NCBI GenBank assembly: GCA_963801665.1
Contig: CAWDFL010000003.1
Coordinates: 207,697 to 271,696, forward strand
Length of the DNA stretch: 64,000 bases
DNA from: an uncultured delta proteobacterium
GTDB lineage: Bacteria; Desulfobacterota; Binatia; Binatales; Binataceae
Reading direction: 5' to 3'
Shown here: positions 27,260 to 42,155 of the stretch, piece by piece
Layout: the number at the start of each line of letters is the position of its first letter
Numbering within the stretch: the first letter of the stretch is position 1
Position numbers and translations under genes: made by a program
The notes under the pieces: generated by a model
Databases searched by the model: none
Told to the model about the DNA's origin: nothing
Seen by the model: only the letters and a program-made list of their open reading frames with translations

Positions 27260-29278
27260 TCAGCCCTTGGCTTTGCCGCCGCGATAGCGCTCGATCGCCC
27301 GCGCGAGTCCGGAGAACCGTTCGATACGCCGCGCCACCGCCTGTTCGAGCAGGTCTTCGCCGCCAAAGATCACGCATGACCGCCGGCTGCGGCTGACTGC
27401 GGTGTAGATCGTCTCGCGCGAGAGCAGCGGCATGTCGCGTTCGGGCAGAATCAGCGCGACGCAATCGTATTCCGAGCCTTGCGCCTTATGCACCGTCATC
27501 GCGTAGCACAGATCGATCGCGTCCGACAGCATTTCGATTCGGAACGCGGCAAGGCCCGACTCTCGCGCGAACACTGCCGCCAGCGAGCGGCGCCCACCGC
27601 GCTCGGCAAGATTCACCAGCACGCCCTGATCGCCGTTGAACAGCATATGATCGTAATCGTTGTGCAGGACGATAACCGGCTCGCCCGCGATCATCGCGCC
27701 TCGCTCTCGCGGTGTGACGCGGCCAAGCGCCGCGCGATGCATCCGCGTGTTGATCGCGTCGGCGCCGGAGCGGCCAATCCGCGTCACGCAAAGGATTCTG
27801 GCCCGCGCCAGATGCGCGAGCATCCTTGCCACGGTCGCCGAGTCCTCGGCGCTGAATGCACCATCTTCGAGCGAATAAGTCTTCTGCGCCATCGCGGCGT
27901 ACTCATCGGACTCGATTTGCGCGCGCGCGAAGTAGGATAGAAATTCCGGCAGCGACTCCGAGGCGCCGGTGACGAGCTCGACACCGGAAAACGCGATCTC
28001 GGCTGCGGTCGCCCGCTTGATTACCGGACTGTCAGCGGCCGAGATCAGATCGGTGCGTCCCTCGTTGATTTGCCGCGCCGCGAGCGCGATCGCCGCTCCT
28101 CCCGTGTCCTCGGCCTTGGCGCGATAGTTCTTACTTAGCGTCGCACTTGCCGCTGGTTCTGCTCCCGGCATCAGATCGCGCAGCACCGCGCCCGCGGCGA
28201 CCGACGGCAACTGATCCGCGTCACCGACAATCGCCAGGCGCGCCTGCGGCCGCAGCGCCGCCGTCAGATGATCCATCAACGTCAGATCAAGCATCGACGC
28301 TTCATCGACGATCACAACGGACGCGTCGAGCGGATTGCCGCGATGATGAACAAAAGATCTTCGGGTGCTCGAAAATCCGAGCAGGCGATGAATCGTGGAC
28401 GCGGCAGGAATCGCTGCGGCGAGCGTCGAATCTTCGGGCGCGGGATTCTCGATCGAGCTAATCGTGTTCCGGATCGACTCATTCATCCGGTACGCGGCCT
28501 TGCCGGTAGGCGCAGCCAGCGCGATCGCTGCCGGATCAATCCCGACCCGCACCAGCACGCGCAGGATCGCAGCGATAATTGAAGTCTTGCCAGTCCCCGG
28601 TCCTCCGGAAATTATCGCAAGTCGCGAGCCCGCTCCGATTTCCACCGCCCGGCGTTGTTCGTCAGAAAGCACGGCCGCGGCGCCGGCGATCATTGCCGGA
28701 CGAGCAACCAGATCCGCAAGCGACTCCGCGATAGCCTGCTCGCTCGGCGCACTGTCGATATCGATCATCGCCGCGAGGCGCTCGGCGACTCTCTGCTCGG
28801 CGCGGTAGATTCGCTCGTGGTAGAGATACGGCTTCAGATAAAGCAGCGGACGCCGCGCGTCGGGACTTCGTCCGATAACCGCGGGCGCGCTGCCAGCGTC
28901 GAGAATCTCCGCGATTTTTTGCGCGACGCGATCGCGCGCGGAATCGTCGAACGGCGGCGCCATCAGGGCGGAAAGCATCCGCTCCAGCGGTTCTTTTGAT
29001 TCATCGCCGCTCACCGGTAGCCGCGTGTTGCCCTCAGCGACGGCTGCCAGCGACAGGACAATCAGCGCTATCAGCGCGAACCTCGCGCTGTCGTCAAGCT
29101 CGGGCGCGAGCGCGGCGATTTCCGCCGCCAGATGCACCGCGCCAGGATCGAGATTAAGTTCGGCGACCGACGCGCGAAGATGCGCCATGTCGGTGTCGAA
29201 CTGTGTCGCGGCGCGATCCGCACGCGCGCTGCGCTGCCACGCCGTGTCCATTCCGAGCAGAGGGTAGAGGGGTTTCAT
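27260..29278 (-). CDS. recD: Exodeoxyribonuclease V alpha subunit
   Basis: GGPGTGKT, APTGKAA, TIHRLLG, VDEASM, GDADQL, TVHKAQGSE; ATGA overlap with recB. Confidence 0.92.
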   Translation of the reverse strand: MKPLYPLLGMDTAWQRSARADRAATQFDTDMAHLRASVAELNLDPGAVHLAAEIAALAPELDDSARFALIALIVLSLAAVAEGNTRLPVSGDESKEPLERMLSALMAPPFDDSARDRVAQKIAEILDAGSAPAVIGRSPDARRPLLYLKPYLYHERIYRAEQRVAERLAAMIDIDSAPSEQAIAESLADLVARPAMIAGAAAVLSDEQRRAVEIGAGSRLAIISGGPGTGKTSIIAAILRVLVRVGIDPAAIALAAPTGKAAYRMNESIRNTISSIENPAPEDSTLAAAIPAASTIHRLLGFSSTRRSFVHHRGNPLDASVVIVDEASMLDLTLMDHLTAALRPQARLAIVGDADQLPSVAAGAVLRDLMPGAEPAASATLSKNYRAKAEDTGGAAIALAARQINEGRTDLISAADSPVIKRATAAEIAFSGVELVTGASESLPEFLSYFARAQIESDEYAAMAQKTYSLEDGAFSAEDSATVARMLAHLARARILCVTRIGRSGADAINTRMHRAALGRVTPRERGAMIAGEPVIVLHNDYDHMLFNGDQGVLVNLAERGGRRSLAAVFARESGLAAFRIEMLSDAIDLCYAMTVHKAQGSEYDCVALILPERDMPLLSRETIYTAVSRSRRSCVIFGGEDLLEQAVARRIERFSGLARAIERYRGGKAKG

Positions 29279-32200
29279 CGATTGAGCCCCATCTCGAACG
29301 GCCGCATCAGCTCGCGTTCAGCGCGCACCACTTCGGCCCATGGCGGATGATAAAAGTAGACCCCGCGATTTCCGCCGTTGGGCGTGATGCCCCGAATGAA
29401 CAGGTAGAGCAAGCCGCCGAATGCGGCCTCGTATTCAGCCTCGCTGTGAATTCCAAGCAGACGGGTGACGCCGATAGTGTAGATCTTTGCCTGCAGGATG
29501 TAGTTATTCCGCGCGTGCTCCGCGACCGACTCGAGTTCGTACGAGTCCAACAGGTCGCTCTTCCAGTCGGCGAAGTAAACGCGAGCTTCGTGGCGAAAAA
29601 CGAAATCCACGAATCCAACATACACTCCCCGCTCGATTCGCCATCGCGCGGCGTCGTTCGCCGGTCCGGAATCGAGCAGGCGATGAGCCAGCTCGGGCAT
29701 CGGAAACGTGAACTCCATCTCGCGCGAGGACTCGCATCGAGCCAATGCGGGAATGGTTTTGGCTCCAACCGCGATTGGCGATCGCAACGTATTGAAGACA
29801 ATCTCGGGACCGCGAATCATCCAGCGCTCGCGTTCCGGCACCTGATGACGCCGCAGCACGGAATCGAACAGCTCGCGAACTTCAGGCAGCGCGCTCCAGG
29901 TAGTCAGATCGCTCGCAGCAGCCAGAGCGTTCAGATCGAGCTTTTCGATCACCTCGTGCAGAAAGATTCCGGCCGCGGCGCCGCCACCGGGCTCCGATGC
30001 GATCCCTGGAAGCTCGGCGGTGGGTTCGAGGTCGCTCTTGTATTCGCTCAGATCGAGTTCCGGTACGGCGCGCCGATGTAAAGACGTGTACGATAGTGTC
30101 GAAAGCGGGGCGCATCTGTGTGCGAGGGCCGCGAGCTCGCTTTCGAGTTTTGCGGCGCTCGGGTCCGCGAGCAGATTCGCCGGCGGCCTCCATCCGCTGA
30201 TCGAGTTCGCGTTCGCATCGGTCTCGCGCGGAGCCATTTCCAGGGCAACGGTCTCGAATAGAGGCTCCGCAAGCTGTCCGGCCGCGTCCATCGCGCGCAG
30301 GCGGTTGTTGAGCTGCTTGTATGGTCCGGATACGTCCCTTCCGAGTTTAGTCGGGATATACGGAAGATATAGTTTTGCGCGCGCGCGAGTGATCGCTACG
30401 TACAGCAGCCTTTGATCCTCCTCGGCCTCGTCTTGATCGATTTTCTTCTTTTCCTGGCGCTGCGCCTCGCTGCCAATCGCGAGCTGACGATCGCCCTCCC
30501 TGTCATGAAAAATCTTCACCGGACGCGGACTGGTGTTTGCGAAGAAACCGCCGAACACGAAAACGACTCGCGCTTCGAGTCCTTTGGCTTTGTGAATCGT
30601 CATGATCTGGACTGCCGCGCGTTCGCTTTCGAGCCGCATGAGATTCGGATCCTCGCCCGACGGCAGCCGGTACTCGCCGACGTAGGCGGCGAGACGATCG
30701 ACAATGTCCGCGATCGTCCATCCTTCCCTGAGCGATTCCGCGAGGAGCAACTCGAACAGGTGTTCGTAATTGGTAAGCTCGCGCAGATTCGGCGCTCCAA
30801 ACAGTTGACGCGCCGCGAGCCCGCTCTCTTCGAGCAGCGCGTCGAACAACTCGGCGAATTCTCCTTCCTTCGCGAGTCCGTGCCACTTCGCCAGCCGCGC
30901 CATCAGCGGATCGGACGGCTCCGGCTCGCCCAGCTTCGCGAGCTCGCGCATCGGGACGCCGAAAAACGGCGTTGCCCACGCCTTCAGGCGATGCGATCGA
31001 TTGTTAGGCGCGGCGACTGCTCGCAACACGTCGAGGACATCGCGCGCTTCATCGGTCTGAAACAATCCTTCGCGCTTGTAGAATGCGTACGGAACGCCTT
31101 CCGCGCGGAGATACTCGGCAAGTTTGATTCCTTCGGCGTTAGTGTTGGTCAGGATAAAGATATCTCCGTACGCGACCGCGGGTCCGGACTTCGCGCCGTC
31201 AGCGACGGTGATCGCCGAGGCAGGGTCATTCACGATCGCATTGATCGTCGCCGCGATTCGGCACGCGAGCATCCGTCTGAGGGCCGCCGCCTTGTATTTC
31301 GCGTCGTGTTTCGCCGCGATCAGCGTGATTGGGATCAGCTCTTTGCCAGCGGCTTTAGCACACAGATCTTCGCGCCCGCAGGAGACCGGGTTCTGATATT
31401 TGATCGTGCTGCTGAACAGCGGCGGATTCGCGTTCTGATCCAAAATCGCGTTGACGGCGGCGATCATCGGCGCGGTCGAGCGAAAGTTCCGGGTCAGCGC
31501 GATCGGATCATTCGGCGGCGCGGCAATTGTGCTCCGCGCCCGCAGGTAAGCGTGAACATCGGCGCCCCGAAACGAATAGATTGCCTGCTTGGGGTCGCCG
31601 ATAAGATACAAAGCGCTCCGCGTATCGCCCTCGACAAAAATTTTACGGAAGATCGCCCACTGGACTTCGTCGGTGTCCTGGAACTCGTCGATCAGCGCGA
31701 AGCGATAGCGGGCGCGCAGCGCCGCCGCCAGTCTGCCGTCGGCATCGTTCGCGAGCGCTTCGTGCACGCGCTCGAGCATGTCGTCATAGTCGATCACGCC
31801 GCGGCGGAATTTTTCCGCTCGCAGCCACTCGCGTATCGGCCGAACGAACCGGGAGGCCAGCCGAGATTCGATCGACGCCGCCGATGCGCCGCCTTCCGGC
31901 TCATAGTGATTGCTATTCACCTCGAAGAGCATCTTTTCGAGATCGTCAACCGACTTGCCCGAATCTTTAATCCATTTCTCCAGGGGCTCGGAGTATTCGG
32001 CGTCGGATATTTTTTTTTCGCGCAACACCGCGCGAAACGCCTCGTGGAACAACGCGCGTCCATCGGCGGCCTCGGTCCCGAACCTTGCGCCGGTATCGAA
32101 TGCGAGTTCAGTCAGGACTCGTTGGCAGAAGCTGTGAATCGTATGAATCGGCGCGCGCTCAAAGGAAAACAGCGCCGCCTCGAGCGGCGCGATCAGATCG

Positions 32201-32481
32201 ATGCCGGGGAACGCCGATTTGATCGCGTTATCGTCCGCATACGCCGCGCGCAGAGCGCGATCGATCGCGGCGCGAACGCGAGCGCGCAGCTCCGCGGTCG
32301 CACGCTGCGTGAAGGTGACGGCCAGGATTTGATCGAGCTTCGCTTCTCCGCGAATCAGCAACTCGACAATCAGATGCTCGAGCGTGAAGGTCTTGCCGGT
32401 GCCGGCACTGGCCTCGATCACGCGATGCGCGCCGAGTCCGATTTTGTCGATGACGGCGGGACGGATATAGGCGCCGTTCAT
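29275..32481 (-). CDS. recB: Exodeoxyribonuclease V beta subunit (helicase-nuclease)
   Basis: EASAGTGKT, DEFQDTD, GDPKQAIYSFRGAD, TIHKAKGLE, YVAITRA; nuclease GFVDFVF...ADWKS. Confidence 0.92.
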   Translation of the reverse strand: MNGAYIRPAVIDKIGLGAHRVIEASAGTGKTFTLEHLIVELLIRGEAKLDQILAVTFTQRATAELRARVRAAIDRALRAAYADDNAIKSAFPGIDLIAPLEAALFSFERAPIHTIHSFCQRVLTELAFDTGARFGTEAADGRALFHEAFRAVLREKKISDAEYSEPLEKWIKDSGKSVDDLEKMLFEVNSNHYEPEGGASAASIESRLASRFVRPIREWLRAEKFRRGVIDYDDMLERVHEALANDADGRLAAALRARYRFALIDEFQDTDEVQWAIFRKIFVEGDTRSALYLIGDPKQAIYSFRGADVHAYLRARSTIAAPPNDPIALTRNFRSTAPMIAAVNAILDQNANPPLFSSTIKYQNPVSCGREDLCAKAAGKELIPITLIAAKHDAKYKAAALRRMLACRIAATINAIVNDPASAITVADGAKSGPAVAYGDIFILTNTNAEGIKLAEYLRAEGVPYAFYKREGLFQTDEARDVLDVLRAVAAPNNRSHRLKAWATPFFGVPMRELAKLGEPEPSDPLMARLAKWHGLAKEGEFAELFDALLEESGLAARQLFGAPNLRELTNYEHLFELLLAESLREGWTIADIVDRLAAYVGEYRLPSGEDPNLMRLESERAAVQIMTIHKAKGLEARVVFVFGGFFANTSPRPVKIFHDREGDRQLAIGSEAQRQEKKKIDQDEAEEDQRLLYVAITRARAKLYLPYIPTKLGRDVSGPYKQLNNRLRAMDAAGQLAEPLFETVALEMAPRETDANANSISGWRPPANLLADPSAAKLESELAALAHRCAPLSTLSYTSLHRRAVPELDLSEYKSDLEPTAELPGIASEPGGGAAAGIFLHEVIEKLDLNALAAASDLTTWSALPEVRELFDSVLRRHQVPERERWMIRGPEIVFNTLRSPIAVGAKTIPALARCESSREMEFTFPMPELAHRLLDSGPANDAARWRIERGVYVGFVDFVFRHEARVYFADWKSDLLDSYELESVAEHARNNYILQAKIYTIGVTRLLGIHSEAEYEAAFGGLLYLFIRGITPNGGNRGVYFYHPPWAEVVRAERELMRPFEMGLNR

Positions 32482-35400
32482 TCGCCCCCGTCCTCATCGC
32501 CAAACAGTGATCTGATCGGCCCAAAGCGGCGATTCACCAGATCAAATATTTTCTCCGGGCTGGGCAGTTCGAGCTCGCGCCATCGGCGCAACGGACCGTA
32601 TGCCGAACTGGGCAAACCGAAATCGCCGTCCTGATCACGCATTTCTTCGAGCGCCGAGATCGCTTCCGCCGCGTCGCTGCCCTTTCGGGATAGCCTGACA
32701 ACTTTTTCCGCCGCTTCGATCGGAAGGAAATAGTCGTGCGGGTCGGAAAGCAGATCGCTGACAAGCCTGGTCAGATACTCGACCGCCTGATCCTTTTCCG
32801 GCGCGACGAGCGTTCCGATCCAGGGCGGCAGTTTTTTCTTTTCTGCCGCTGTACCCACAAGGATTGCTCTGAACTCTTTTGGGATTGGTTGACCCGCCGC
32901 CTTGAGCACAATCGCGTTCACGAACAGAGGCAGGAAATGCCGGACTTTGGCGTCCTTGCGTGCTACGCATTGCAACGCCGCGTCGAATCCGGGTGAGAAG
33001 GCTCCGACGCTTCCGTAGAGCCTGACTCGCCGCGAGATAATTTTGCCGGGCGCCGTCCGCACCGGCACTTCGAGTACCAGATAGGGCAGAATCTCTTGCG
33101 ACGATGACGCGTGCTCGTCGGCGCGGCCGATACGAAACTCTTTCCACTCCGACAAGTTGCCGGCCTTTGCCGCCTCTGCGTACTTGCTCCAGCCGCGGAT
33201 CAAATTCAGATCCTGATCGCGCAATGTATCCGCTATTGGACCGGCTGGTGCGCGTCCTTTCATCTGCGCCAGCGCCGCCGCGCGCAGGTATTCGGATTTA
33301 GCGGCGGTATCGCTCGTCGGCAGCTTCCAAAAGACCTCGCGCAAGAGCATCACCTGGTCGAGCCTGGTCATGCCGACCGGTTCGTCCGCGATATCTTCGT
33401 CGGCGTCCTCGTCTTCGCTCATGCCCAGCGCATAGCGGGCGGCTCCCTGCGCGGGACACTCGAGAAATTTTCGTAACGCGGCGACCGGCAGATACAAGTC
33501 GGCGTCGCGCTCGGTGACTTCGGCCGCTTCACTCGTTTTCGGAATTCGCAGATCGGGACGCAGAGCCTCGCGCGCTTCGGGCGAGAGCGCTGCCAAAAGC
33601 TCGCGTGCGTCGAGACGCGCGGCATCATCGGTGTAATGGTCCAGATCTTGGCGTAACGCCGTTATTCGCGCGCCTTGGCGCGCAGCGCTATCGACGCTGA
33701 GCCCGTTGAGCGGCGATACGCCGCCGCCAGGGTCTCCGAAGTAGCCGACATCATAACGGCTGACCGGATGGGCCAGGGTCAAAGCGTCGACCGCGGCTTC
33801 CTTGAGATACGAGCCGAGAATGAGTTGGAGTTCGCGAATGACCGTTGAGGGCTCGAGCGCGTCCCCGGTGTGCGGATCGCGTGCAACGTACGAGAACGCG
33901 ATCCGCTCGCGCGCGGCCAGAATCGATTCGAGGAACATGTACCGATCGCGATCGGTCGGACTCAAGTCGCCGGCATGGCGCCGGATCCCGCGAAGGTCGA
34001 GCGGGTCGCGAGGATCGCGCGCCGGAAAAAACGACTCGCCGAGACCCATCACGAAAATCGCGCGAAAGGGGATCGAGTGCAGCGTGCCCATCGCGCCCGC
34101 TGCTACTCCATGTCCCGCGAAGCGTACCTGGCGCGCGCCGAGCTCATCGATCAGCGCCGACGCCATCGCCTCCGCCACGGCGTAGGAAACCTCAGGGCTT
34201 TCGATTTCCTCCGTACGCATCGCGTCAATAGCAGCCAGGCATCGGTCGCGCATCTGCCGATCTTCGGGCTCGTCGACGATGACATACCGCTCGATCATCC
34301 GCATGAGCAGTTGTGCCCATCGCCTGAGGCTCATCCGCTCGCGCCTGATCGCGTTTGCGTCGGCCAGGAGCGCGCGCGTAGTGCTGACGAACGCCTGCGC
34401 CGCGGGGATTTCGCTCTCGTCGATCTCGAGCGGCAGCAACGCGCCAATTTCCGCCGACTCGAACAGCCGATCGTCGCCGCTGCGTTCGCCCGACATGAAT
34501 GCTCCCAGCGCGAGTCGTTTGAGCGCCTGGTCCCAATTGAAAAGATTGGCCGGAATATAGGTCGCGGCTGGATCGCCTCCATCGGCGCCGAAGAAAACTC
34601 CCAACTCCTCGCACCAGGCATCCCACAGTTCAACGTCGAGCGCCGGGTCGCCGCCATTGAGCGCACGATGCTTCAGCAGGCGCAGCAGATCGGCGCGCGT
34701 AAACCGGCCGAGCGGGAGTTTGAGCAGCAGACTGATCGCTTCGGCGACGCGACTTTGGCGTGCAACGCTGCGTCCACTGATCTCGACCGGGATGCCATGG
34801 ATTCGCGCGAAGACTGCTTCAATATGCGGCGCGTAAACTTCGCATTCGGAGTCTGGAATCAGCACGCCAATCTCATTAAAGCGAAGCGGATTCTTTCCGG
34901 ATGCGCTCCGCTGCAAGAGCCGCCAGATCTCGCTCGCGACAATCTCGACCTCGCGCTGGATTCCGGGGCATGCGAGAAATCGAATGCTCGCCGGCGAAGC
35001 AGCGTCCCGCAGTTCAGCGCCGCGCGAGCGATCCAGGATATCTTGCTGAACACGTGAAAGAAGTGACGCGTCTTTGCCGTCCGGCTGGTCGATGAAGTTC
35101 GATTCGAAATCACAATCGCTGAGCTCGTTGAGCAGGCGGATATATTCGCGGCCGGGCAGGCCCCATAACTCCAGCGCGCGATTGTCGGCGGCAGCAAGGC
35201 CGAATGGATCTTCACTCTTTTCAAGCTCCCCGTCGATCCGGCTTCCGCGATGAACCCAATTCGTCGTGGCATCGCGGCGCGAGGTATTCAGATCTTCCCA
35301 GAACTCGCGGCATGGATTGAGCGCGTAAATCGAAAGCGCGCCGCACTTTCCGAGCCGCGCGAAAATCTCCGCATAAGCTTGCCCCGGCGAGGCGAGTCCG

Positions 35401-36074
35401 AATACGTGGAGTCCGTCGCGCATCGCTTCGGTGAGGGCCGCATCGCTGATTCGCGCGAACGCGCCCGGCAAGAGCATCCAGTCGTGCGCCGCGTCGCCAG
35501 TCCATTGGGGATTTGCGGCGCCGCTTGCGTCGAAGATGATTCGCCATAGAGCTTGTTGCCATTTTTCATTCTCGGCGATTGCGGTGCCGGCTGCCGCCAC
35601 GCGGCCGCCACTCCACCGCGCAAGCATCGTGCAGCGGGAAATCGAGTACTCTTCAAACAGCTTTGCCACACGTCCCGACAACTCGAAGGCTCGCAGCTCC
35701 GCCTCGGGAGTATCGCGCCCGCCGCCCGCGTCGATGTATCGCCACGCGGGTGCAAGTTGCGAGTCAGCCCGATTTTTCAGGCTAATCAGACTGTTGAAGA
35801 TGACGAGCTGAAGTGCGCCCGCGGCGAGCACGCGCAGCCGGGGATTGGCGTTCTGAACAATGTTGGTCAGGTGCGTGCGCAGGAATGGAAAAGCGAGATT
35901 GGCGGCGACTCCCAGACGCTCGGCGGTCTGATACTTCACGAACTGCTCGACGGCCCGGCTCGGTACGACGATCGCGATCTTTCGCAACGGTTTGCGCCGC
36001 TGCTGCTCGGCGATCGAGTCTGCGAGCGGCTCGATCAATCCTTCGAGCCTGTTCGAGTAGTGAAGCTTGAGCAT
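32478..36074 (-). CDS. recC: Exodeoxyribonuclease V gamma subunit
   Basis: YSNRLE start, NPCREFWED, REVE, IPFRAIFVMGL...FP, DRYMFLE; ATGA overlap with recB. Confidence 0.9.
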   Translation of the reverse strand: MLKLHYSNRLEGLIEPLADSIAEQQRRKPLRKIAIVVPSRAVEQFVKYQTAERLGVAANLAFPFLRTHLTNIVQNANPRLRVLAAGALQLVIFNSLISLKNRADSQLAPAWRYIDAGGGRDTPEAELRAFELSGRVAKLFEEYSISRCTMLARWSGGRVAAAGTAIAENEKWQQALWRIIFDASGAANPQWTGDAAHDWMLLPGAFARISDAALTEAMRDGLHVFGLASPGQAYAEIFARLGKCGALSIYALNPCREFWEDLNTSRRDATTNWVHRGSRIDGELEKSEDPFGLAAADNRALELWGLPGREYIRLLNELSDCDFESNFIDQPDGKDASLLSRVQQDILDRSRGAELRDAASPASIRFLACPGIQREVEIVASEIWRLLQRSASGKNPLRFNEIGVLIPDSECEVYAPHIEAVFARIHGIPVEISGRSVARQSRVAEAISLLLKLPLGRFTRADLLRLLKHRALNGGDPALDVELWDAWCEELGVFFGADGGDPAATYIPANLFNWDQALKRLALGAFMSGERSGDDRLFESAEIGALLPLEIDESEIPAAQAFVSTTRALLADANAIRRERMSLRRWAQLLMRMIERYVIVDEPEDRQMRDRCLAAIDAMRTEEIESPEVSYAVAEAMASALIDELGARQVRFAGHGVAAGAMGTLHSIPFRAIFVMGLGESFFPARDPRDPLDLRGIRRHAGDLSPTDRDRYMFLESILAARERIAFSYVARDPHTGDALEPSTVIRELQLILGSYLKEAAVDALTLAHPVSRYDVGYFGDPGGGVSPLNGLSVDSAARQGARITALRQDLDHYTDDAARLDARELLAALSPEAREALRPDLRIPKTSEAAEVTERDADLYLPVAALRKFLECPAQGAARYALGMSEDEDADEDIADEPVGMTRLDQVMLLREVFWKLPTSDTAAKSEYLRAAALAQMKGRAPAGPIADTLRDQDLNLIRGWSKYAEAAKAGNLSEWKEFRIGRADEHASSSQEILPYLVLEVPVRTAPGKIISRRVRLYGSVGAFSPGFDAALQCVARKDAKVRHFLPLFVNAIVLKAAGQPIPKEFRAILVGTAAEKKKLPPWIGTLVAPEKDQAVEYLTRLVSDLLSDPHDYFLPIEAAEKVVRLSRKGSDAAEAISALEEMRDQDGDFGLPSSAYGPLRRWRELELPSPEKIFDLVNRRFGPIRSLFGDEDGGE

Positions 36075-36137
36075 CCCCTTTTTCTCCGCGCGTCAGGCTG
36101 ACGATATGAGTTTCGATCTGCCTCGTCCAACACGCTC

Positions 36138-36186
36138 ATTATATTCGCTTCAAAAGACAGCGGTTGTCTTGGCGAAACGCTATAAT
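36138..36186. promoter_or_regulatory. Symmetric bidirectional promoter/operator between recC and the WYL gene
   Basis: ATTATA(36138-43)-N10-AAGACA(36154-59)-N5-TGTCTT(36165-70)-N10-TATAAT(36181-86). Confidence 0.8.
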
Positions 36187-36213
36187 TGAGATGCTCTCAA
36201 GGAGGGCGCACTG

Positions 36214-37245
36214 ATGGCGGTCAAATCAAGAAAACCAACCTATGAGTCGGGAATCCGTTACGCGCGAATCGCAATGATGCTGACGGAAGAGCCGCTCGGA
36301 GTGCCGCTCCAGAGAATTCAGCGCGAGCTTGGGGTGAGCGGACGCACGGTGGATCGCTATGTGCGCGAGTTCGTGAGGATGCGCGGAAAGCTTGGGCAAG
36401 GAGTCGTCGAGGCGGTGGGCGCCGGACCGAGCCGCAAGCTGCGGTTGGTCGCGCGCCGGGGCGGGCCGAGCTCGAATGTCTACCAGGCGGCGGCGATGTA
36501 CTCGAGCCTGGCGCTGCTGAAATTTCTCGAGGGCACCGTGCTCAAGTCGGGAGTTGACGATATCTGGGAGCGGGTGCGGACCAACCTGCCGCCAGCGTGG
36601 CAGTTCAGGCTCCGCGACTTCAACCGCAAGTTCTACACCGTGCAATACGTTCCCAAGGATTATCGTCCGTACGAAGAGCAGATCGACGTGATTATGCGCG
36701 CGCTGCTCGACGAGAAGCGCCTGCGAATCCATTACGCGTCGATGAACCGAACCGACGGCAGCGATCGCACGCACGATTTCAATCCCTACACTCTGGTTCA
36801 ATATCGCGGCGGACTGTATCTGCTGGGCCGCAGTCATCGCGGCACCGGGATTATCTATTTGGCCGTCGAGCGGATGCGCTCGGTGGAATTCATCAAAGAC
36901 GAGTCCGGCACTGACGAAAGATTCCAGTTGCCCGCATCCTACAATCCGGCGGCCTTCGTGCAGGGAACATTCGGGATCGTCAGCGAGGATCGCGAGACGA
37001 TCGTAGTACTGAAAAGCCTCAGTCCGGAAACGGACGCTCGCCTTGGCGCGCGCACTATTCATCCTTCCCAGCAGCTTTCGGTGGCGCGCGACGGCCGGAC
37101 GCTCTTGCGGCTCAAGCTCAAAGGGACCGCGGAGCTTGCCAACTGGATCATGGCGATGAGCCCGTTTATCAAGGTGCTCGAACCCAAGACCCTCCGCGAC
37201 GAAATCAAAGCCCGGATTCGCGATACCTCCCGCGTCTATGCGTAG
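36214..37245 (+). CDS. wHTH-WYL-WCX transcriptional regulator
   Basis: N-terminal HTH (ELGVSGRTVDRY), WYL core (PYTLVQYRGGLYLLG...AVERM), WCX (ELANWIMAMSPFIKVLEPKTLR); RBS AAGGAGG. Confidence 0.88.
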   Translation: MAVKSRKPTYESGIRYARIAMMLTEEPLGVPLQRIQRELGVSGRTVDRYVREFVRMRGKLGQGVVEAVGAGPSRKLRLVARRGGPSSNVYQAAAMYSSLALLKFLEGTVLKSGVDDIWERVRTNLPPAWQFRLRDFNRKFYTVQYVPKDYRPYEEQIDVIMRALLDEKRLRIHYASMNRTDGSDRTHDFNPYTLVQYRGGLYLLGRSHRGTGIIYLAVERMRSVEFIKDESGTDERFQLPASYNPAAFVQGTFGIVSEDRETIVVLKSLSPETDARLGARTIHPSQQLSVARDGRTLLRLKLKGTAELANWIMAMSPFIKVLEPKTLRDEIKARIRDTSRVYA

Positions 37246-37364
37246 AGGGGTGGCGCGGAGGCTCAGTGATTTCTGATAACATCGCGAGCGCATTCGGGGC
37301 GGCGAGAGGGCGGTCCGTGGCGGCGGATTCACCACGCACTCGGGAGTTATTCAGGAGGGGCGAT

Positions 37365-38501
37365 TTGCACATACGCAATCTTTCGCTTGCGCTACTGATT
37401 GTAGCGGCAATTGCCGGGGAAGTCGGATGCGGTAATCACCCTAAACCCACCACCGAGCCGCCGATCGCGGTAACCGTACGCGCGGTCAGGGAAGCTACGC
37501 AGGCCCATCGCGGCGCATACACCGCGAATCTCCAGCCCTATCGCCAGGTTGGCCTGACGTTTCAGGTTAGCGGCTACGTCGAGACGATCAAGCAAGTTGC
37601 GGGAGCGGGAGGACGCACCCGCGATATCCAGGGCGGCGATCCTGTGAAAAATGGCGAGTTGCTCGCGACGATCCAGACCGGACCCTATCAGCAGCAGGTC
37701 AATCAGGCCGCCTCGGTGCTGGTCAATGCGGAAGCGACCTATGCGAAGGCAAAGGCCGACTACGATCGCAATAGCGCCCTGTTCAAGGAAAAGATCATCG
37801 CGCAACGCGACTATGACAATGCCGTTCAACAGTACCGATCTTCCGATGCGCAGGTGAAGCAGTCCGAGGCCTCGCTCAAGCAGGCGCAGATCAATCTCGG
37901 TTACTGCAAGCTGACCTCGCCGATGGACGCCGTGATGCTGAGCCGCGGAATCGAAATCGGCTCGCTGGTCGGCCCGAGTGTCGTCGCGTTTCAGATTGCC
38001 GACACGACCGAGATGAAGGCGATCTTCGCAGTCTCGGATATAGAAGTGGGCCAGTTGAAACAGGGGCAAGCACAGACCCTGCGCAGTGAAGCGCTGCCGG
38101 GTGTGCAGCTCGAAGGACAAATCACGCGGATTGCGCAAAGCGCCGACCCGAACACGCGTACCTTCGATGTCGAGCTCACGATCCCGAACAAGGACGGCCG
38201 CTTGCGCGTCGGGATGATCGCGTCGCTCAAGCTCGCCAATGGCGCGTCCGCGCCGGCCGCGACCGCAGCGACGGTTCCAATAAATGCAGTCGTGCGGCCG
38301 CCCGAGGATCAGAGCGGCTATGCCGTATTCGTCGCCAGCGAAGAGGGCGGCAAGACGGTCGCGCGGATGCGCAAGGTGCGGCTGGGCGATATCGTCGGCA
38401 ACGAAATCGCGGTTAACTCCGGAGTCGCGATTGGCGACCGCGTGATCGTGCGCGGCGCCACGATGGTTACCGACGGCCAGGAAATCCGGATCATCCCGTA
38501 A
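37365..38501 (+). CDS. RND efflux periplasmic adaptor subunit
   Basis: Lipoyl-hairpin pattern FQVSGYV...LTSPMDA, DPNTRTFDVE, LRVGM; TTG start after GGAGGGG. Confidence 0.88.
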   Translation: MHIRNLSLALLIVAAIAGEVGCGNHPKPTTEPPIAVTVRAVREATQAHRGAYTANLQPYRQVGLTFQVSGYVETIKQVAGAGGRTRDIQGGDPVKNGELLATIQTGPYQQQVNQAASVLVNAEATYAKAKADYDRNSALFKEKIIAQRDYDNAVQQYRSSDAQVKQSEASLKQAQINLGYCKLTSPMDAVMLSRGIEIGSLVGPSVVAFQIADTTEMKAIFAVSDIEVGQLKQGQAQTLRSEALPGVQLEGQITRIAQSADPNTRTFDVELTIPNKDGRLRVGMIASLKLANGASAPAATAATVPINAVVRPPEDQSGYAVFVASEEGGKTVARMRKVRLGDIVGNEIAVNSGVAIGDRVIVRGATMVTDGQEIRIIP

Positions 38502-41500
38502 TGGCACATCGCAGCGACGAAGAAATAATCCGCACGACCCATAACACCGCGCGGTTTTTTGTAGAGAATCGCGCAATCTCGTGGGTGCTGCTGGCCGCCG
38601 TGGTCGCGTGGGGCATTTACGGCTACCTGCACATGCCCAAGCGCAAGGATCCGGATATTCCCGTGCGCCAGGCGCTCGCCGTATGCCCGTGGCCGGGAGT
38701 CAGCGCCGAGAAAATCGAGCAGACGGTTACGCGCAAGATGGAGGAGAAGATCGCGACCAACTCTTACATCCATCCCGCCGGCGCCGGGACCGACTACGGA
38801 ATCAGGTCGCTGACGCTCGACGGGATCGCAATCGTTTATATTCAGCTCACTGAAAACGTCGGCGATACCGAAAAGCAATTCAACGACATCAATCTCAAGC
38901 TCGCCAGTATCCGCGATCTGCCCAGCGGCGCCGGCCCGATCCAGTTCCAGAGCGATTTCGGCGACACCGCGGCGTTGATGCTGACCGTCGCGAGCCCCAA
39001 GGTGAACGAGGTCGAGATCGCTCTGCGCGCGCGCGAGGTTCGCGCCGCTATCGAGAAAGCGCGCGCGAGCGCCGCGCCGGACTCGAAATCCAATCGTATC
39101 TCGCTAGTGACGATCTTTCCGCCGACGATGCCTGCCGAGTCGGTGACGCGGGTGCGCGACGCGCTGTCGCGTTATCTGGCGGAGCATCACGCGGCGGCCG
39201 ATATTCGCCCTCTCGACGGATCGGGTTTCTCGGGCCTCGACGCGGCACAGCCTGCGGGCGCCGACCTGGTGAAATCGGCGACTGCCTATATCAACTCCCA
39301 GGTCGGGACCTCGATGTTCGAGGCGTTTCATCCCGACGCGTGGCCGCCGGTGGCGATCGTGGATCCCGCCAAGACCGAGGCGATTCTCGAAGCCTCGGCG
39401 GGTGACAAGTACACCTACCGTGATCTCAAGCGCTACACCGATCTGATCTCGCGGGCTCTGGAAGCGGTTCCCGAACGTCGAGAAGATCTCGCGCACCGGC
39501 ATTCTGCCGGAATGGGTCAACCTGGTCTACTCGCAAGAGCGGCTTGCGTCCTATGGTTTCACGCCGAGCAAGCTCTCGCAGATTTTGTCGTCGCGCAACA
39601 TCACGCAGTCGGCCGGGATGATCAACGCGGCCGGCACCGACGTGACGCTGCATCCGAGCGGCGAATTTACCGACGCGCAGGAGATCGGCGACGTGATTCT
39701 CGGCAAGTCGGAATCCGGATCGCCGTTCTACCTGCGCGATCTGGCGGATATCTCGCGCGGGTACCAGGCGCCGCCGCGGCTCCTGAATTTCTATACCTGG
39801 AAGACTGCCGACGGGCACTGGAACCGCGGACGCGCGATCACGATCGCGGTATTTATGCGCTCGGGCGAGCAGATAAGCGCGTTCGGTGCGGCAGTCGACA
39901 AGGCGATTGCCGGGCTTAAGACCCGCCTGCCCGAGGACCTCGTCGTCGCGCGCACCTCGGATCAGCCGCTCCAGGTTCGCGAAAATGTGCACCTGTTCAT
40001 CGGTGCGCTGTACGAGGCGATCGCGCTGGTGGTCGTCATCGCGCTGATCGGCTTCTGGGATTGGCGCGCGGCGCTGCTGATCGCGCTATCGATTCCGCTC
40101 ACGCTCGCGATGACGTTCGGCATGATGTACATCCTCGGCATCGATCTCCAGCAGGTGTCGATCGCGACGTTGATCATCGCGCTCGGACTGTTGGTGGACG
40201 ATCCTGTGGTGGCGGGCGACGCGATTAAGCACGATCTGGGTCTTGGGCATCCGGCGGAAGTCGCGTCGTGGCTTGGGCCGACCAAGCTCGAACGCGCAAT
40301 CCTGTTCTCGACCATCACCAACATCGTTGCTTATTTGCCGTTTCTGTTGCTCTCGGGCGACACCGGGAACTTTCTCTACAGCCTGCCGATCGTGATGACC
40401 TGCGCACTGGTCGCGTCGCGGATCATCTCGATGACTTTTATTCCGCAACTCGGTTACTACCTGATGCGGCCCGGAAAACCGCTGCCGCCGATCGAGTATC
40501 GGCGCACCCACGGCGCCACCGGCGTGTACTACCGGATTGGGCACTACGCATTGGAGCATCGCAAGACCTTTGTCGCGTGCTCGATGCTGTTTCTGATCGC
40601 GGGGTTTCTGGTCGCGAAGCAATTGCGCAGCGCGTACTTTCCCGAAGACGTTCAGTACCTGTCGTATATCGACGTATGGCTTCCCAACGGCGCGGCGATT
40701 TCCGAGACCGACGCGACCGTGAAAAAAGTCGCGGCGGTGGTGCGAGGCGCGGCCGCTGAATACGGCAAGGAACATCCCGAGCACGGACATCCGCGCACGA
40801 TCCTGAAATCGATCACCAGCTTTGTCGGCGGTGGTGGGCCGCGCTTCTGGTTTTCCGTTTCACCGGAATCGCCGCAGGCAAACTACGCGCAGTTGATCCT
40901 CGAGATCGAAAATAAGGAAGACATGCCGAAGTTCGTCGGCCCGCTCCAGAATCTCATCTCGAAGGAAGTTCCCGGCGCGTACGTTGACGTGTGCCAGCTG
41001 CTGACCAATCCGGTGCGCTATCCAATCGAGGTGCACATCTTTGGCCAGGCCGATATCGATCCGGCGCGCGAACAGGCGGACATCGAGACGCTTCAGCAGA
41101 TCGCCAACCAGGCCGAGGCGGTGCTGCGCTCGGTTCCCGGCGCACGGCGCATCCGCACTGACTGGATGGCCGAGAGTCCGGTCATCAATCTGCCGATAAA
41201 TCCCGATCGCGCGAATCTGGCCGGCGTCACCAATCAGGACATCGCCAATTCCGCCGCCGCGGGCCTTTCCGGAGCGCAGGTGGGAACGCTGATCAGCGGC
41301 GACCTGCGCATCCCGATCGTCGCGCGCCTGCGGCAGGAGGAGCGCGCCCAGCTTTCAGATTTGGGAAGTCTTTACATCTACGCGTCGCAAGGAAACGGGC
41401 GGGTTCCGATCCAGGCGGTTGCGCCAATCGTGTTTCGATTGTCGCCCGAACGGATTGTCCGCCGCGATCACTTTCGCACGATCTCCGTGATCGCCTATCC

Positions 41501-42155
41501 AGCTCCCGGGGTGCTTCCGTCGGAAGTTATGAAGATCGCGACGCCGAAGCTCAAAGAGATCGCGAGCCATTTGCCGCCCGGCTACCGGCTCGAGATCGGC
41601 GGCGAGCAGGCCAAGCAGAGCGAAGGCTTTGGCGAGTTGGCGGTGGTGCTGTTGATCTCGGTCGTGCTGATCTTCGTCGCGCTGGTGGTGCAGTTCAACA
41701 ATCTCGTAAAGCCGTGGCTGGTGTTCGTGGCGGTGCCGTATGGCGCGGTCGGCGCGGTCGCCGCGCTTTGGATCATGGGCGCGCCGTTCGGCTTCATGGC
41801 ATTTTTGGGCATCGCGAGCCTGGTCGGCGTGATCGTCAGCCACGTAATCGTGCTGTTCGAGTTTATCGAAGAGCGCCGCGAGATGGGCGAGGAACTGATC
41901 CAGGGATTGCTCGACGCGGGAATCGAGCGCCTGCGTCCGGTGATGGTGACCGTGGGCGCGACTCTGCTGGCGTTGTTTCCGCTGGCGCTGCACGGCGGCC
42001 CGCTATGGCAGCCGCTGTGCTACGCGCAGATCGGCGGGCTCGCGCTCGCGACGGTGATCGAGCTGATCCTGGTCAAATCGTTCTATGCGATTTTCGTCGC
42101 CGATCTCGGAATCCTGAAATGGGCGCCGCACGCCGCCTCCAGCAAGGAACCTTAA
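38501..42155 (+). CDS. RND efflux permease (AcrB family), frameshift near 39471
   Basis: WPGVSAEKIEQ, ALGLLVDD, RLRPVMVT; split over ORFs 38501..39919 and 39585..42155. Confidence 0.88.

What the first reader, a model, noticed from the sequence alone, without database searches (positions are those of the whole stretch)
27260..37245. WYL regulator divergently coupled to a recC-recB-recD operon: candidate inducible DNA-damage or anti-phage module
Seen: a translationally coupled recCBD operon (ATGA overlaps) sits head-to-head with a wHTH-WYL-WCX gene 139 bp away, between unrelated metabolic and efflux genes. Known: WYL regulators sense nucleic acids; PafBC and DriD activate LexA-independent damage responses, BrxR and CapW control defence operons, and E. 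coli recBCD is not SOS-inducible. Inference: this WYL protein switches on its own RecBCD in response to ssDNA, and RecBCD products could feed back on the sensor. It may be an accessory resection or defence nuclease rather than the housekeeping one. I know of no characterised WYL-recBCD unit.
Basis: partly seen in the sequence, partly recalled or inferred. Interest (0 to 1): 0.85.

Follow-up and report, generated by a model that had tools for sequence, protein, structure and literature searches.

The report
DriD-like WYL regulator beside inducible recCBD
In an uncultured soil bacterium (Binataceae) a DNA-damage-type WYL regulator sits back to back with the recC-recB-recD genes and shares with them one conserved binding site placed as in the known activators DriD and PafBC, so this is most likely an ordinary but neat new example of a damage-induced DNA-end-processing switch.

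Summary
In detail: recC-recB-recD (ATGA overlaps) lie head to head, 139 bp apart, with a wHTH-WYL-WCX gene. The organism is a Candidatus Binataceae MAG. The arrangement recurs in 50 of 75 related loci, while the efflux genes downstream recur in only 7. Every shared intergenic region (51 of 51) carries one palindrome, GAC-N7-GTC (TGACAACSGTTGTCA). On the recC side a TANNNT -10 box lies exactly 12 nt after GTC in 46 of 51, and no -35 box was found. DriD's site has the same GAC-N7-GTC form, and the PafBC consensus and the didA promoter have the same GTC-N12 spacing. The base-reading arginines (R44, R48) are invariant, and DriD is the closest solved structure. The palindrome tracks the WYL gene: 96 sites in 30 WYL+ genomes against 26 in 51 WYL- genomes. 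It also lies upstream of addBA (9 of 21 WYL+, 0 of 20 WYL-) and of dnaB.

Verdict: most likely a DriD-type, ssDNA-sensing activator of a small double-strand-break regulon with recCBD as its linked target. AddAB is the near-universal resection enzyme and RecBCD is patchy. A defence role is not supported. PafBC already controls recBCD in mycobacteria, so this is a new member of a known kind.

The parts
27260..29278 (-). recD (exodeoxyribonuclease V alpha, 672 aa)
   Evidence: TIGR01447 recD 359 bits, above its cut-off of 310; AAA_19/AAA_30/UvrD_C_2; start overlaps the recB stop as ATGA
29275..32481 (-). recB (helicase-nuclease, 1068 aa)
   Evidence: TIGR00609 recB 546.6 bits, best hit but below its cut-off; E. 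coli RecB E 6e-85 with helicase motifs and the nuclease GFxD...DxK segment aligned; start overlaps the recC stop as ATGA
32478..36074 (-). recC (1198 aa), first gene of the operon
   Evidence: Exonuc_V_gamma 174 bits + RecC_C; TIGR01450 335 bits, best hit but below its cut-off
36138..36143 (-). predicted -10 box (TATAAT on the minus strand) of the recC promoter, 12 nt from the operator's GTC; no -35 box
   Evidence: read; TANNNT at this offset in 46 of 51 homologous intergenic regions and at 11 nt in 3 more; the sigma-70 scan found no -35/-10 pair
36156..36168 (.). operator palindrome GACAGCGGTTGTC (GAC-N7-GTC), predicted binding site of the WYL dimer, shared by both divergent promoters
   Evidence: present in 51 of 51 recC-WYL intergenic regions; copy number per genome follows the presence of the WYL gene
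36181..36186 (+). predicted -10 box (TATAAT) of the WYL gene's own promoter, also 12 nt from GTC
   Evidence: this geometry on the WYL side is found in only 6 of 51 regions, those of the window's own genus
36214..37245 (+). wHTH-3HB-WYL-WCX regulator (343 aa), DriD-like
   Evidence: Pfam WYL and WCX; PDB profile search: DriD E 9e-12 over the full length, PafBC 7e-5; Foldseek: DriD 8e-15, PafBC 3e-11, BrxR 1.5e-6, CapW 3.6e-6; R44 and R48 invariant; homodimer model ipSAE 0.56 against a best control of 0.00
37266..42155 (+). HlyD-type MFP (37266-38501) and AcrB-type RND pump (38501-42155, split by a frameshift), possibly read through from the WYL promoter in this genus only
   Evidence: Pfam; 20-bp gap and no terminator predicted there; adjacency found in only 7 of the 50 linked loci; the pump is one 1217-aa frame in 7 of 7 relatives

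Best explanation
The 343-aa protein is a homodimeric DriD-type WYL transcription activator of an SOS-independent DNA-damage response in Binataceae. Its two wHTH domains read the GTC triplets of the palindrome GAC-N7-GTC at 36156-36168 through R44 and R48. The palindrome lies where a -35 box would be, exactly 12 nt upstream of a -10 box on each strand. A bound dimer can therefore recruit sigma-70 RNA polymerase leftwards to recC-recB-recD and rightwards to its own gene, and in this genus probably on into the MFP/RND pump genes. The three rec genes are translated from one mRNA through ATGA coupling. By analogy with DriD, PafBC and CapW, the trigger is single-stranded DNA bound between the WYL and WCX domains. 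Resection by the constitutive AddAB or by basal RecBCD would make that ssDNA, which gives a positive loop that ends when the ssDNA is consumed. The regulator is not private to recCBD, because the same operator also precedes addBA and dnaB in the genera that keep the WYL-recC linkage. Shown by sequence and comparison: gene content, operator, geometry and co-occurrence. Inferred: the ligand, activation rather than repression, and the transcription start sites.
For: Adjacency: recC-recB-recD lie divergent from the WYL gene in 50 of 75 loci found with the WYL alignment. That includes all 49 loci with at least 48% WYL identity. In a sample of 81 family genomes, 19 have both genes and 11 of these have them adjacent.

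Operator: the palindrome is present in 51 of 51 intergenic regions. On the recC side TANNNT lies at 12 nt in 46 of 51 and at 11 nt in 3 more, and no other offset occurs more than once. No -35/-10 pair was found.

Same rules as known activators: the PafBC consensus is tGTCgg(N10)tA(N3)T and PafB R46/R50 read GTC (PMC8635444 passages). The DriD site is ATACGAC(N7)GTCGTAT, read by R37/R41 (PMC10853764 passages). DriD sites overlap the -35 position at a fixed distance from the -10 box in promoters without a -35 box. In the didA DNA printed in the Methods, GTC is followed by 12 nt and then the -10 hexamer, using the authors' optimised -35 as the register (PMC13004042). The profile alignment pairs R44-T45-x-D47-R48 with DriD R37-T38-x-E40-R41.

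Closest solved proteins are activators: DriD, then PafBC, then BrxR and CapW.

The operator tracks the regulator: 96 sites in 30 WYL+ genomes (reversed-pattern control 7) against 26 in 51 WYL- genomes (control 14). Upstream of recC, 0 of 13 WYL- genomes have it. G033 has it although its WYL gene is on another contig. Upstream of addB it occurs in 9 of 21 WYL+ and 0 of 20 WYL- genomes.

The homodimer model passes (0.56 against a best of 3 controls of 0.00; runs share at least 41% of contacts; partner pLDDT at least 70). In the tool's calibration this mark was reached by 20 of 30 proteins solved as pairs of one chain and 1 of 23 solved as single chains, and these counts hold only roughly with my own alignment. 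The interface is the WCX domain plus helix 1. DriD dimers are solved, so the pass may reflect likeness to them.
Against: There is no expression or binding data. On the WYL side the N12 geometry is seen in only 6 of 51 regions; most have AGATGA at that offset. The addB and dnaB sites lack TANNNT at N12. Of 7 genomes with unlinked WYL and recC, only 1 has a clear operator upstream of recC, 2 have a 3-mismatch variant with the triplets everted, and 4 have none. Eleven genomes have the WYL gene but no RecC found, and 29 have RecC without it. In my reading of the HMM alignment only about 3 of 10 DriD ssDNA-contact residues are matched (Y168, R189, Y192), while R204, R207, Y240 and R288 are not. The AF2 model is mediocre (pLDDT 67.5) and the full-length TM scores are 0.35-0.40. 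The known WYL regulators that sit beside their targets at bidirectional promoters, CapW and BrxR, are repressors (PMC11662680 and PMC13004042 passages). Counts across related genomes are not independent.
Confidence: 0.6

Rival explanations
1. The WYL protein is a CapW/BrxR-type repressor. Without a signal the dimer sits on the palindrome between the two -10 boxes and blocks both promoters, and ssDNA releases it. The outcome, damage-induced recCBD, is the same, but the logic is derepression.
For: The palindrome lies inside a compact bidirectional promoter, where a bound dimer could occlude polymerase. CapW controls a bidirectional promoter and is released by ssDNA made by RecBCD (PMC11662680 passages). 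BrxR and CapW appear among the fold matches. The addB sites do not have the activator spacing.
Against: Neither side has a -35 box or a consistent extended -10, so the promoters look too weak to work unaided. The GTC-N12-(-10) spacing equals that of PafBC and of the DriD didA promoter. DriD and PafBC match far better than BrxR and CapW by sequence profile and by fold. In my reading, the model's helices at about 87-139 correspond to the three-helix bundle that DriD uses to contact polymerase.
Confidence: 0.2
2. The WYL-recCBD unit is an anti-phage or anti-plasmid module. It would be an accessory RecBCD held off until foreign or damaged DNA appears and then made in quantity to degrade linear DNA.
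For: RecBCD is the patchy, more divergent resection enzyme (RecC in 48 of 81 genomes, 36-83% identity). The AddB-like gene is found in 72 of 81 at 53-91% identity. WYL regulators often control defence systems (paper passages).
Against: No defence genes lie nearby. PADLOC gives only generic UvrD/RecD helicase hits, and none for RecC. The locus sits in a conserved chromosomal context, with the 6PGD-like gene next to recD in close relatives. The same operator also precedes addBA and dnaB, which points to repair and replication.
Confidence: 0.1
3. The adjacency to recC is incidental. The WYL protein would only autoregulate, or would regulate the MFP/RND efflux genes that follow it 20 bp downstream.
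For: The efflux genes follow on the same strand with no terminator predicted. Orthologues in other genera keep the palindrome upstream of themselves but sit next to unrelated genes: AAA ATPases, a DUF2779 protein, a metallophosphatase and selB.
Against: The efflux genes follow the WYL gene in only 7 of the 50 linked loci, and not in L018 at 78% identity. The conserved promoter geometry is on the recC side (46 of 51), not on the WYL side (6 of 51). The operator is upstream of an unlinked recC in G033 and absent upstream of recC in 13 of 13 WYL- genomes.
Confidence: 0.05

Closest known systems
DriD of Caulobacter crescentus (homodimeric wHTH-3HB-WYL-WCX activator of an SOS-independent damage response)
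   Same: It is the best sequence-profile and fold match. A homodimer is predicted. Both bind a palindromic GAC-N7-GTC site, and the arginine pair that reads GTC is conserved. The site overlaps the -35 position at a fixed distance from the -10 box in promoters without a -35 box (PMC10853764 and PMC13004042 passages). The regulon is small and concerns DNA metabolism (DriD: didA, bapE, recJ, dnaG).
   Different: Identity is about 20%. The outer flanks of the site differ (T/A here against ATAC/GTAT). The targets here are recCBD, addBA and dnaB. The regulator's gene shares one operator with its main target. The ssDNA-contact residues are only partly matched.
PafBC of mycobacteria (heterodimeric WYL activator, sigma adaptation)
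   Same: The promoter rule is the same, tGTCgg(N10)tA(N3)T, which is GTC-N12-TANNNT, with no -35 box (PMC8635444). Its regulon includes both end-resection machines, RecBCD and AdnAB (review PMC8223512). ssDNA is its trigger (PMC11804915, abstract in the listing).
   Different: PafBC is a PafB/PafC heterodimer on a non-palindromic site, is encoded in the proteasome locus and controls about 150 genes. Here there is one gene, a palindromic site and a handful of sites per genome. The sequence match is weak (E 7e-5).
CapW and BrxR (WYL repressors of CBASS and BREX)
   Same: Both are wHTH-WYL-WCX dimers encoded next to the operon they control, at a bidirectional promoter. CapW senses ssDNA produced by RecBCD (PMC11662680 passages).
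   Different: They are repressors of defence systems and are more distant by fold (E about 1e-6 against 1e-14 for DriD). No defence genes are found here.
SiwR of M. smegmatis (WYL activator of adjacent genes under genotoxic stress)
   Same: It is a local WYL activator that controls neighbouring genes (PMC10693628; only the start of the abstract was seen, in the listing).
   Different: The target genes are different. I did not read the paper beyond the listing.
E. coli RecBCD; mycobacterial RecBCD beside AdnAB
   Same: The three subunits, the helicase motifs and the RecB nuclease segment are conserved. As in mycobacteria, a second resection machine is present in the same genome.
   Different: RecB is about 110 residues shorter than in E. 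coli. RecB and RecC score below the NCBIfam equivalog cut-offs. That E. coli recBCD is not damage-inducible is recalled, not checked here.

Membership tests
wHTH-WYL-WCX transcription factors | WYL domain followed by a WCX domain | tested here: met
   PF13280 47.6 bits (cut-off 21.8) and PF25583 43.3 bits (cut-off 23.9)
wHTH-WYL-WCX transcription factors | [quoted passage not shown] | tested here: met
   HTH_23 is below its cut-off (19.9 against 24.6), but the full-length profile alignment to DriD starts at residue 13 and the AF2 model has helices 10-25, 32-39 and 43-54 followed by two strands
DriD-type homodimeric WYL activators | Homodimer through the WCX domain | tested here: met
   Prediction only: ipSAE 0.56 against a best of 3 controls of 0.00, interface at 310-342 and 13-25. 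The pass may reflect likeness to solved DriD dimers
DriD-type homodimeric WYL activators | Recognition-helix arginine pair (DriD R37, R41) that reads the GTC triplet | tested here: met
   R44 and R48 are invariant in 20 of 20 aligned homologues and pair with DriD R37 and R41 in the profile alignment (residue roles from PMC10853764)
DriD-type homodimeric WYL activators | Palindromic GAC-N7-GTC target site | tested here: met
   GACAACSGTTGTC in 51 of 51 intergenic regions. Binding itself was not tested
DriD-type homodimeric WYL activators | Site overlaps the -35 position at a fixed distance from the -10 box, in a promoter without a -35 box | tested here: met
   recC side: TANNNT 12 nt after GTC in 46 of 51; no -35/-10 pair found. 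It is met on the WYL side in only 6 of 51, and not at the addB sites
DriD-type homodimeric WYL activators | ssDNA-binding pocket residues between the WYL and WCX domains | tested here: inconclusive
   In my reading of the HMM alignment, the equivalents of DriD Y168, R189 and Y192 are invariant (Y174, R198, Y202). R178 aligns with His, and R204, R207, Y240 and R288 are not matched. Residue list from PMC10853764
DriD-type homodimeric WYL activators | ssDNA-dependent activation of transcription | not testable with these tools
   Needs a biochemical or reporter assay. No RNA holder was listed
PafBC | PafB/PafC heterodimer (or natural fusion) on a non-palindromic site, encoded in the proteasome locus | tested here: not met
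   It is a single 343-aa gene. The only other WYL gene in the genome is a 227-aa HTH_11+WYL protein elsewhere. The site is palindromic. PafBC matches at only E 7e-5. A proteasome locus was not looked for
RecBCD (exodeoxyribonuclease V) | RecC, RecB (SF1A helicase with a PD-(D/E)XK nuclease) and RecD (SF1B helicase) encoded together | tested here: met
   recD is above its equivalog cut-off. recB and recC are best hits but below their cut-offs. The RecB nuclease segment aligns with that of E. coli. The genes are translationally coupled
Known anti-phage defence systems (PADLOC) | Specific match of the components to a defence-system model | tested here: not met
   Only generic GajB/UvrD and RecD helicase-domain hits and Cas-associated WYL models were found, and none for RecC

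The most novel reading that the evidence does not exclude
One palindromic operator placed symmetrically between two -10 boxes makes a self-amplifying circuit. ssDNA made by end resection would switch on the resection enzymes themselves (RecBCD and AddAB), the replicative helicase, the sensor and, in this genus, an RND pump. In addition, the rule 'GTC, 12 nt, -10 box, no -35 box' is shared by WYL activators of three distant lineages (Actinobacteria, Alphaproteobacteria, Binatia). If that rule holds, damage regulons of uncultured bacteria could be read from sequence alone.
Probability: 0.25. Interest if true: 0.6.

Novelty: new member of a known kind. Interest (0 to 1): 0.4.

Why it matters
It extends SOS-independent, WYL-driven damage responses to an uncultured soil and peat lineage that also keeps LexA and RecA. 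It gives a regulator, an operator and a promoter in about 50 bp that can be tested in E. coli. It also suggests that the GTC-N12-(-10) promoter grammar of DriD and PafBC is general. Induction of both end-resection machines by their own product would be a clear example of feed-forward control in double-strand-break repair. It is not a new kind of system, and PafBC already sets the precedent for WYL control of recBCD.

Tried and rejected
A wider regulon in the window's own genome. Four exact GACARCSGYTGTC sites exist in G000. Besides the recC-WYL site, one lies inside aroA (EPSP synthase) with no fitting geometry and was rejected as chance or ancestry. One lies inside tilS and points to ftsH; it is kept as a lead. 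One lies upstream of dnaB and is kept.

Among 100 GAC-N7-GTC cores with up to 3 mismatches, only 4 have TANNNT at 11-12 nt, and only the recC-WYL site has it on both sides.

LexA box: comparing the lexA and recA upstream regions gave no shared motif of 9 nt or more, so I could not test for SOS control of recC.

Expression: no RNA holder was listed for 34000-38000. Thirteen DNA runs were listed, from soil and peat, most with small shares.

Phylum-wide search: close WYL orthologues were found only within the class. One other genome, G223, has two copies, neither next to its RecC-like gene. The arrangement outside this class could not be surveyed with the tools at hand.

Literature: searches for 'WYL domain'+recBCD, WYL+recC/recB/recD, 'WYL domain'+neighbourhood terms and DriD+RecBCD listed no paper describing a WYL gene divergent from recCBD. 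The library lacks most subscription journals. Müller et al. 2018 (the PafBC regulon) was seen only through the review. Supplements were closed, and they may list PafBC or DriD targets that bear on this.

The variant TGTCAACGGCTGACA upstream of recC in G045 and G062 has the triplets everted, so I do not count it as an operator.

Rows dropped. One search left out L080 and L082 because of a bit-score filter; they were added. L043 and L076 have too little upstream flank to judge. The match list was cut (94 matches not shown), so the cross-matches to dnaB are minimum counts. G059 is ambiguous, with WYL and a partial RecC on different small contigs.

The counts include the unpublished genomes G044, G059, G042, G017 and G072. 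G044 is one of the adjacent cases and one of the addB sites, and G042 is one addB site. These claims need the depositors' permission before publication.


Full report
OBSERVATION. The window holds four open frames exactly as described: recD 27260-29278, recB 29275-32481 and recC 32478-36074 on the minus strand, and a 343-aa gene at 36214-37245 on the plus strand. NCBIfam and Pfam identify RecD (above the equivalog cut-off), RecB and RecC (best hits, below their cut-offs) and a WYL + WCX protein. Both rec junctions read ATGA, and the divergent gap is 139 bp. RecB aligns with E. coli RecB through the helicase motifs and the nuclease GFxD...DxK segment. The flanks are a 6PGD-like gene and G6PD on one side, and an HlyD-type MFP and an AcrB-type pump on the other.

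ORGANISM AND GENOME. Names attached to homologues and to related contigs place the window in Candidatus Binataceae MAGs. The genome held (4.63 Mb, 4 contigs, 93.5% complete) also encodes LexA and RecA. It has a second helicase-nuclease pair whose best NCBIfam hits are AddA and AddB, both below their cut-offs; the AddB-like protein has a PD-(D/E)XK domain. It has one further, shorter WYL protein elsewhere.

IS THE ADJACENCY CONSERVED? A search of one genome per species with an alignment of WYL homologues returned 75 loci. tblastn with the window's proteins found recC-recB-recD divergent from the WYL gene in 50 of them. That includes all 49 loci with at least 48% WYL identity, plus L055. The efflux genes follow the WYL gene in only 7 loci (80-97% identity), and not in L018 (78%).

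In an even sample of 81 family genomes, the WYL orthologue was found in 30, RecC in 48 and both in 19. In 11 of those 19 the genes are adjacent: 10 divergent and 1 tandem, in four genera. In 7 they are unlinked, and 1 is ambiguous. The AddB-like gene was found in 72 of 81 genomes at higher identity. AddAB is therefore the core resection enzyme, and RecBCD is the patchy one.

THE OPERATOR. All intergenic regions between recC and the WYL gene (the window plus 50 loci) contain one palindrome, TGACAACSGTTGTCA. In the window it reads GACAGCGGTTGTC at 36156-36168. On the recC side a TANNNT hexamer lies exactly 12 nt after the GTC in 46 of 51 regions and at 11 nt in 3 more, and no other offset occurs more than once. 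On the WYL side this holds in only 6 of 51, all from the window's genus, where both sides read GTC-N12-TATAAT or a close variant (L013 TATACT, L015 TACAAT). No -35 box lies at a usable distance, and the consensus scan finds no sigma-70 pair. The promoter whose geometry is conserved is thus the recC one.

COMPARISON WITH KNOWN WYL REGULATORS.
- PafBC: the consensus is tGTCgg(N10)tA(N3)T, which is GTC-N12-TANNNT. PafB R46/R50 read the GTC, and the promoters lack a -35 box (PMC8635444 passages).
- DriD: it binds ATACGAC(N7)GTCGTAT, which is GAC-N7-GTC as here, and R37/R41 read the GTC (PMC10853764 passages). Its sites overlap the -35 position at one fixed distance from the -10 box in promoters without a -35 box. 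In the didA DNA printed in the Methods, GTC is followed by 12 nt and then the -10 hexamer, taking the authors' optimised -35 as the register (PMC13004042).
- This protein: R44 and R48 are invariant in 20 of 20 homologues and pair with DriD R37 and R41 in a full-length profile alignment (DriD E 9e-12, PafBC 7e-5).
- Structure: an AF2 model of modest quality (pLDDT 67.5) matches DriD best (8e-15), then PafBC (3e-11), then BrxR and CapW (about 1e-6).
- Dimer: a homodimer model passes its controls (0.56 against 0.00), with the interface in the WCX domain and helix 1. Solved DriD dimers may explain that pass.
- ssDNA pocket: in my reading of the HMM alignment, only about 3 of 10 DriD ssDNA-contact residues are matched, so the ligand remains an inference.

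DOES THE OPERATOR BELONG TO THIS PROTEIN, AND WHAT ELSE DOES IT CONTROL? The 13-mer GACARCSGYTGTC occurs 96 times in the 30 WYL+ genomes (reversed-pattern control 7) and 26 times in the 51 WYL- genomes (control 14).

Upstream of recC, 0 of 13 WYL- genomes have it. Among 7 genomes with unlinked genes, G033 has it 97 bp upstream of recC, two have an everted variant that I do not count, and four have none.

Upstream of the addB-like gene, a site with up to 2 mismatches lies 86-104 bp from the start in all three genomes tested from the window's genus and all four from the other main linked genus. G014 and G042 also have one. That is 9 of 21 WYL+ genomes against 0 of 20 WYL- genomes.

A further site follows a rhomboid gene, 131-258 bp upstream of dnaB, in five genomes of the window's genus and one of the other.

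A site inside tilS points to ftsH with TANNNT at N12 in three genomes of the genus.

More distant orthologues (40-46% identity) keep the palindrome upstream of themselves, next to other genes: AAA ATPases, a DUF2779 protein, a metallophosphatase and selB. Related genomes are not independent, so these counts show a pattern rather than a statistic.

MECHANISM. The best reading is a DriD-type activator. ssDNA from resected ends would free the wHTH domains. The dimer then binds the palindrome in the place of a -35 box and recruits polymerase to recC-recB-recD, to its own gene and, at other sites, to addBA and dnaB. The products make more ssDNA until repair removes it. CapW's dependence on RecB in E. 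coli shows that RecBCD products can feed a WYL sensor (PMC11662680 passages). I put 0.6 on this. I put 0.2 on the same circuit run by a repressor, 0.1 on a primarily anti-phage role and 0.05 on an incidental adjacency.

NOVELTY. A review states that the M. smegmatis PafBC regulon contains RecBCD and AdnAB (PMC8223512 passages), so WYL control of recBCD is not new. Four literature searches listed no description of a WYL gene divergently coupled to recCBD, nor of such a regulator in Binatia. The library is incomplete and supplements were closed. I file it as a new member of a known kind, with moderate interest: the compact symmetric promoter and the shared spacing rule are useful and easy to test.

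LIMITS. The assembly has frameshifts (the RND pump and dnaB are each split), probably indel errors. Several counts include unpublished genomes (G044, G059, G042, G017, G072).

Noticed in passing
window 38501-42155: The AcrB-type RND pump gene is split into two overlapping frames (472 and 856 aa), whereas 7 of 7 close relatives have a single 1217-aa frame. dnaB elsewhere in this genome is split in the same way. This looks like assembly indels rather than pseudogenes.
   Followed up: partly
window 36181-38501: Only in the window's genus does the WYL-side promoter have the full GTC-N12-TATAAT form (or a close variant), and only there do the MFP/RND pump genes follow the WYL gene (20-120 bp). A DNA-damage-induced efflux pump is therefore possible.
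   Followed up: partly
window 36091-36120: Inside the predicted recC 5' leader, a stretch (GCTGACGATATG...TTTC) is kept in all nine sequences of the genus group, and in the window it forms a short inverted repeat, CGTCAGGCTGACG. It could be a second control element or a leader structure.
   Followed up: no
G000:C1:1082147-1082159 (outside the window): An operator-like site (2 mismatches) lies 86 bp upstream of the addB-like gene and is followed by a conserved GTTGTGGAWAC. It has the same position in the seven genomes tested from two genera and is absent in 20 of 20 genomes without the WYL gene.
   Followed up: yes
G000:C3:1231759-1231771 (outside the window): An exact operator lies between a rhomboid protease gene and dnaB. 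The same arrangement is seen in a second genus (L091).
   Followed up: partly
G000:C4:388950-388962 (outside the window): A perfect palindrome inside tilS, with TANNNT 12 nt away, points to ftsH. It is kept in G020 and G236 while the spacer between the motifs varies. It may be an internal damage-responsive ftsH promoter.
   Followed up: partly
G014 and G057 (genus g15), genome-wide: These two genomes carry 15 and 13 exact palindromes, against 0-5 in the others. Either the regulon is much larger or a repeat element carries the site. G014 has no RecC by this search.
   Followed up: no
L150, L152, L155 and G000:C4:163510-163906: In three genomes of the genus, a palindrome followed 12 nt later by GAYAAT lies at the edge of a variable segment. 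It sits next to a repeat of about 165 bp that has several copies in G000.
   Followed up: no
G000:C3:880328-881011 (L089:3328-4011): A second, shorter WYL regulator (227 aa, HTH_11 + WYL, no WCX hit) lies divergent from a luciferase-like monooxygenase gene and upstream of a cupin gene.
   Followed up: partly
L074:55-4208: In a contig labelled Myxococcales, a WYL orthologue (40% identity) with the palindrome upstream lies about 1 kb from a distant RecC-like frame (27% identity). This may be a second occurrence of the pairing.
   Followed up: no
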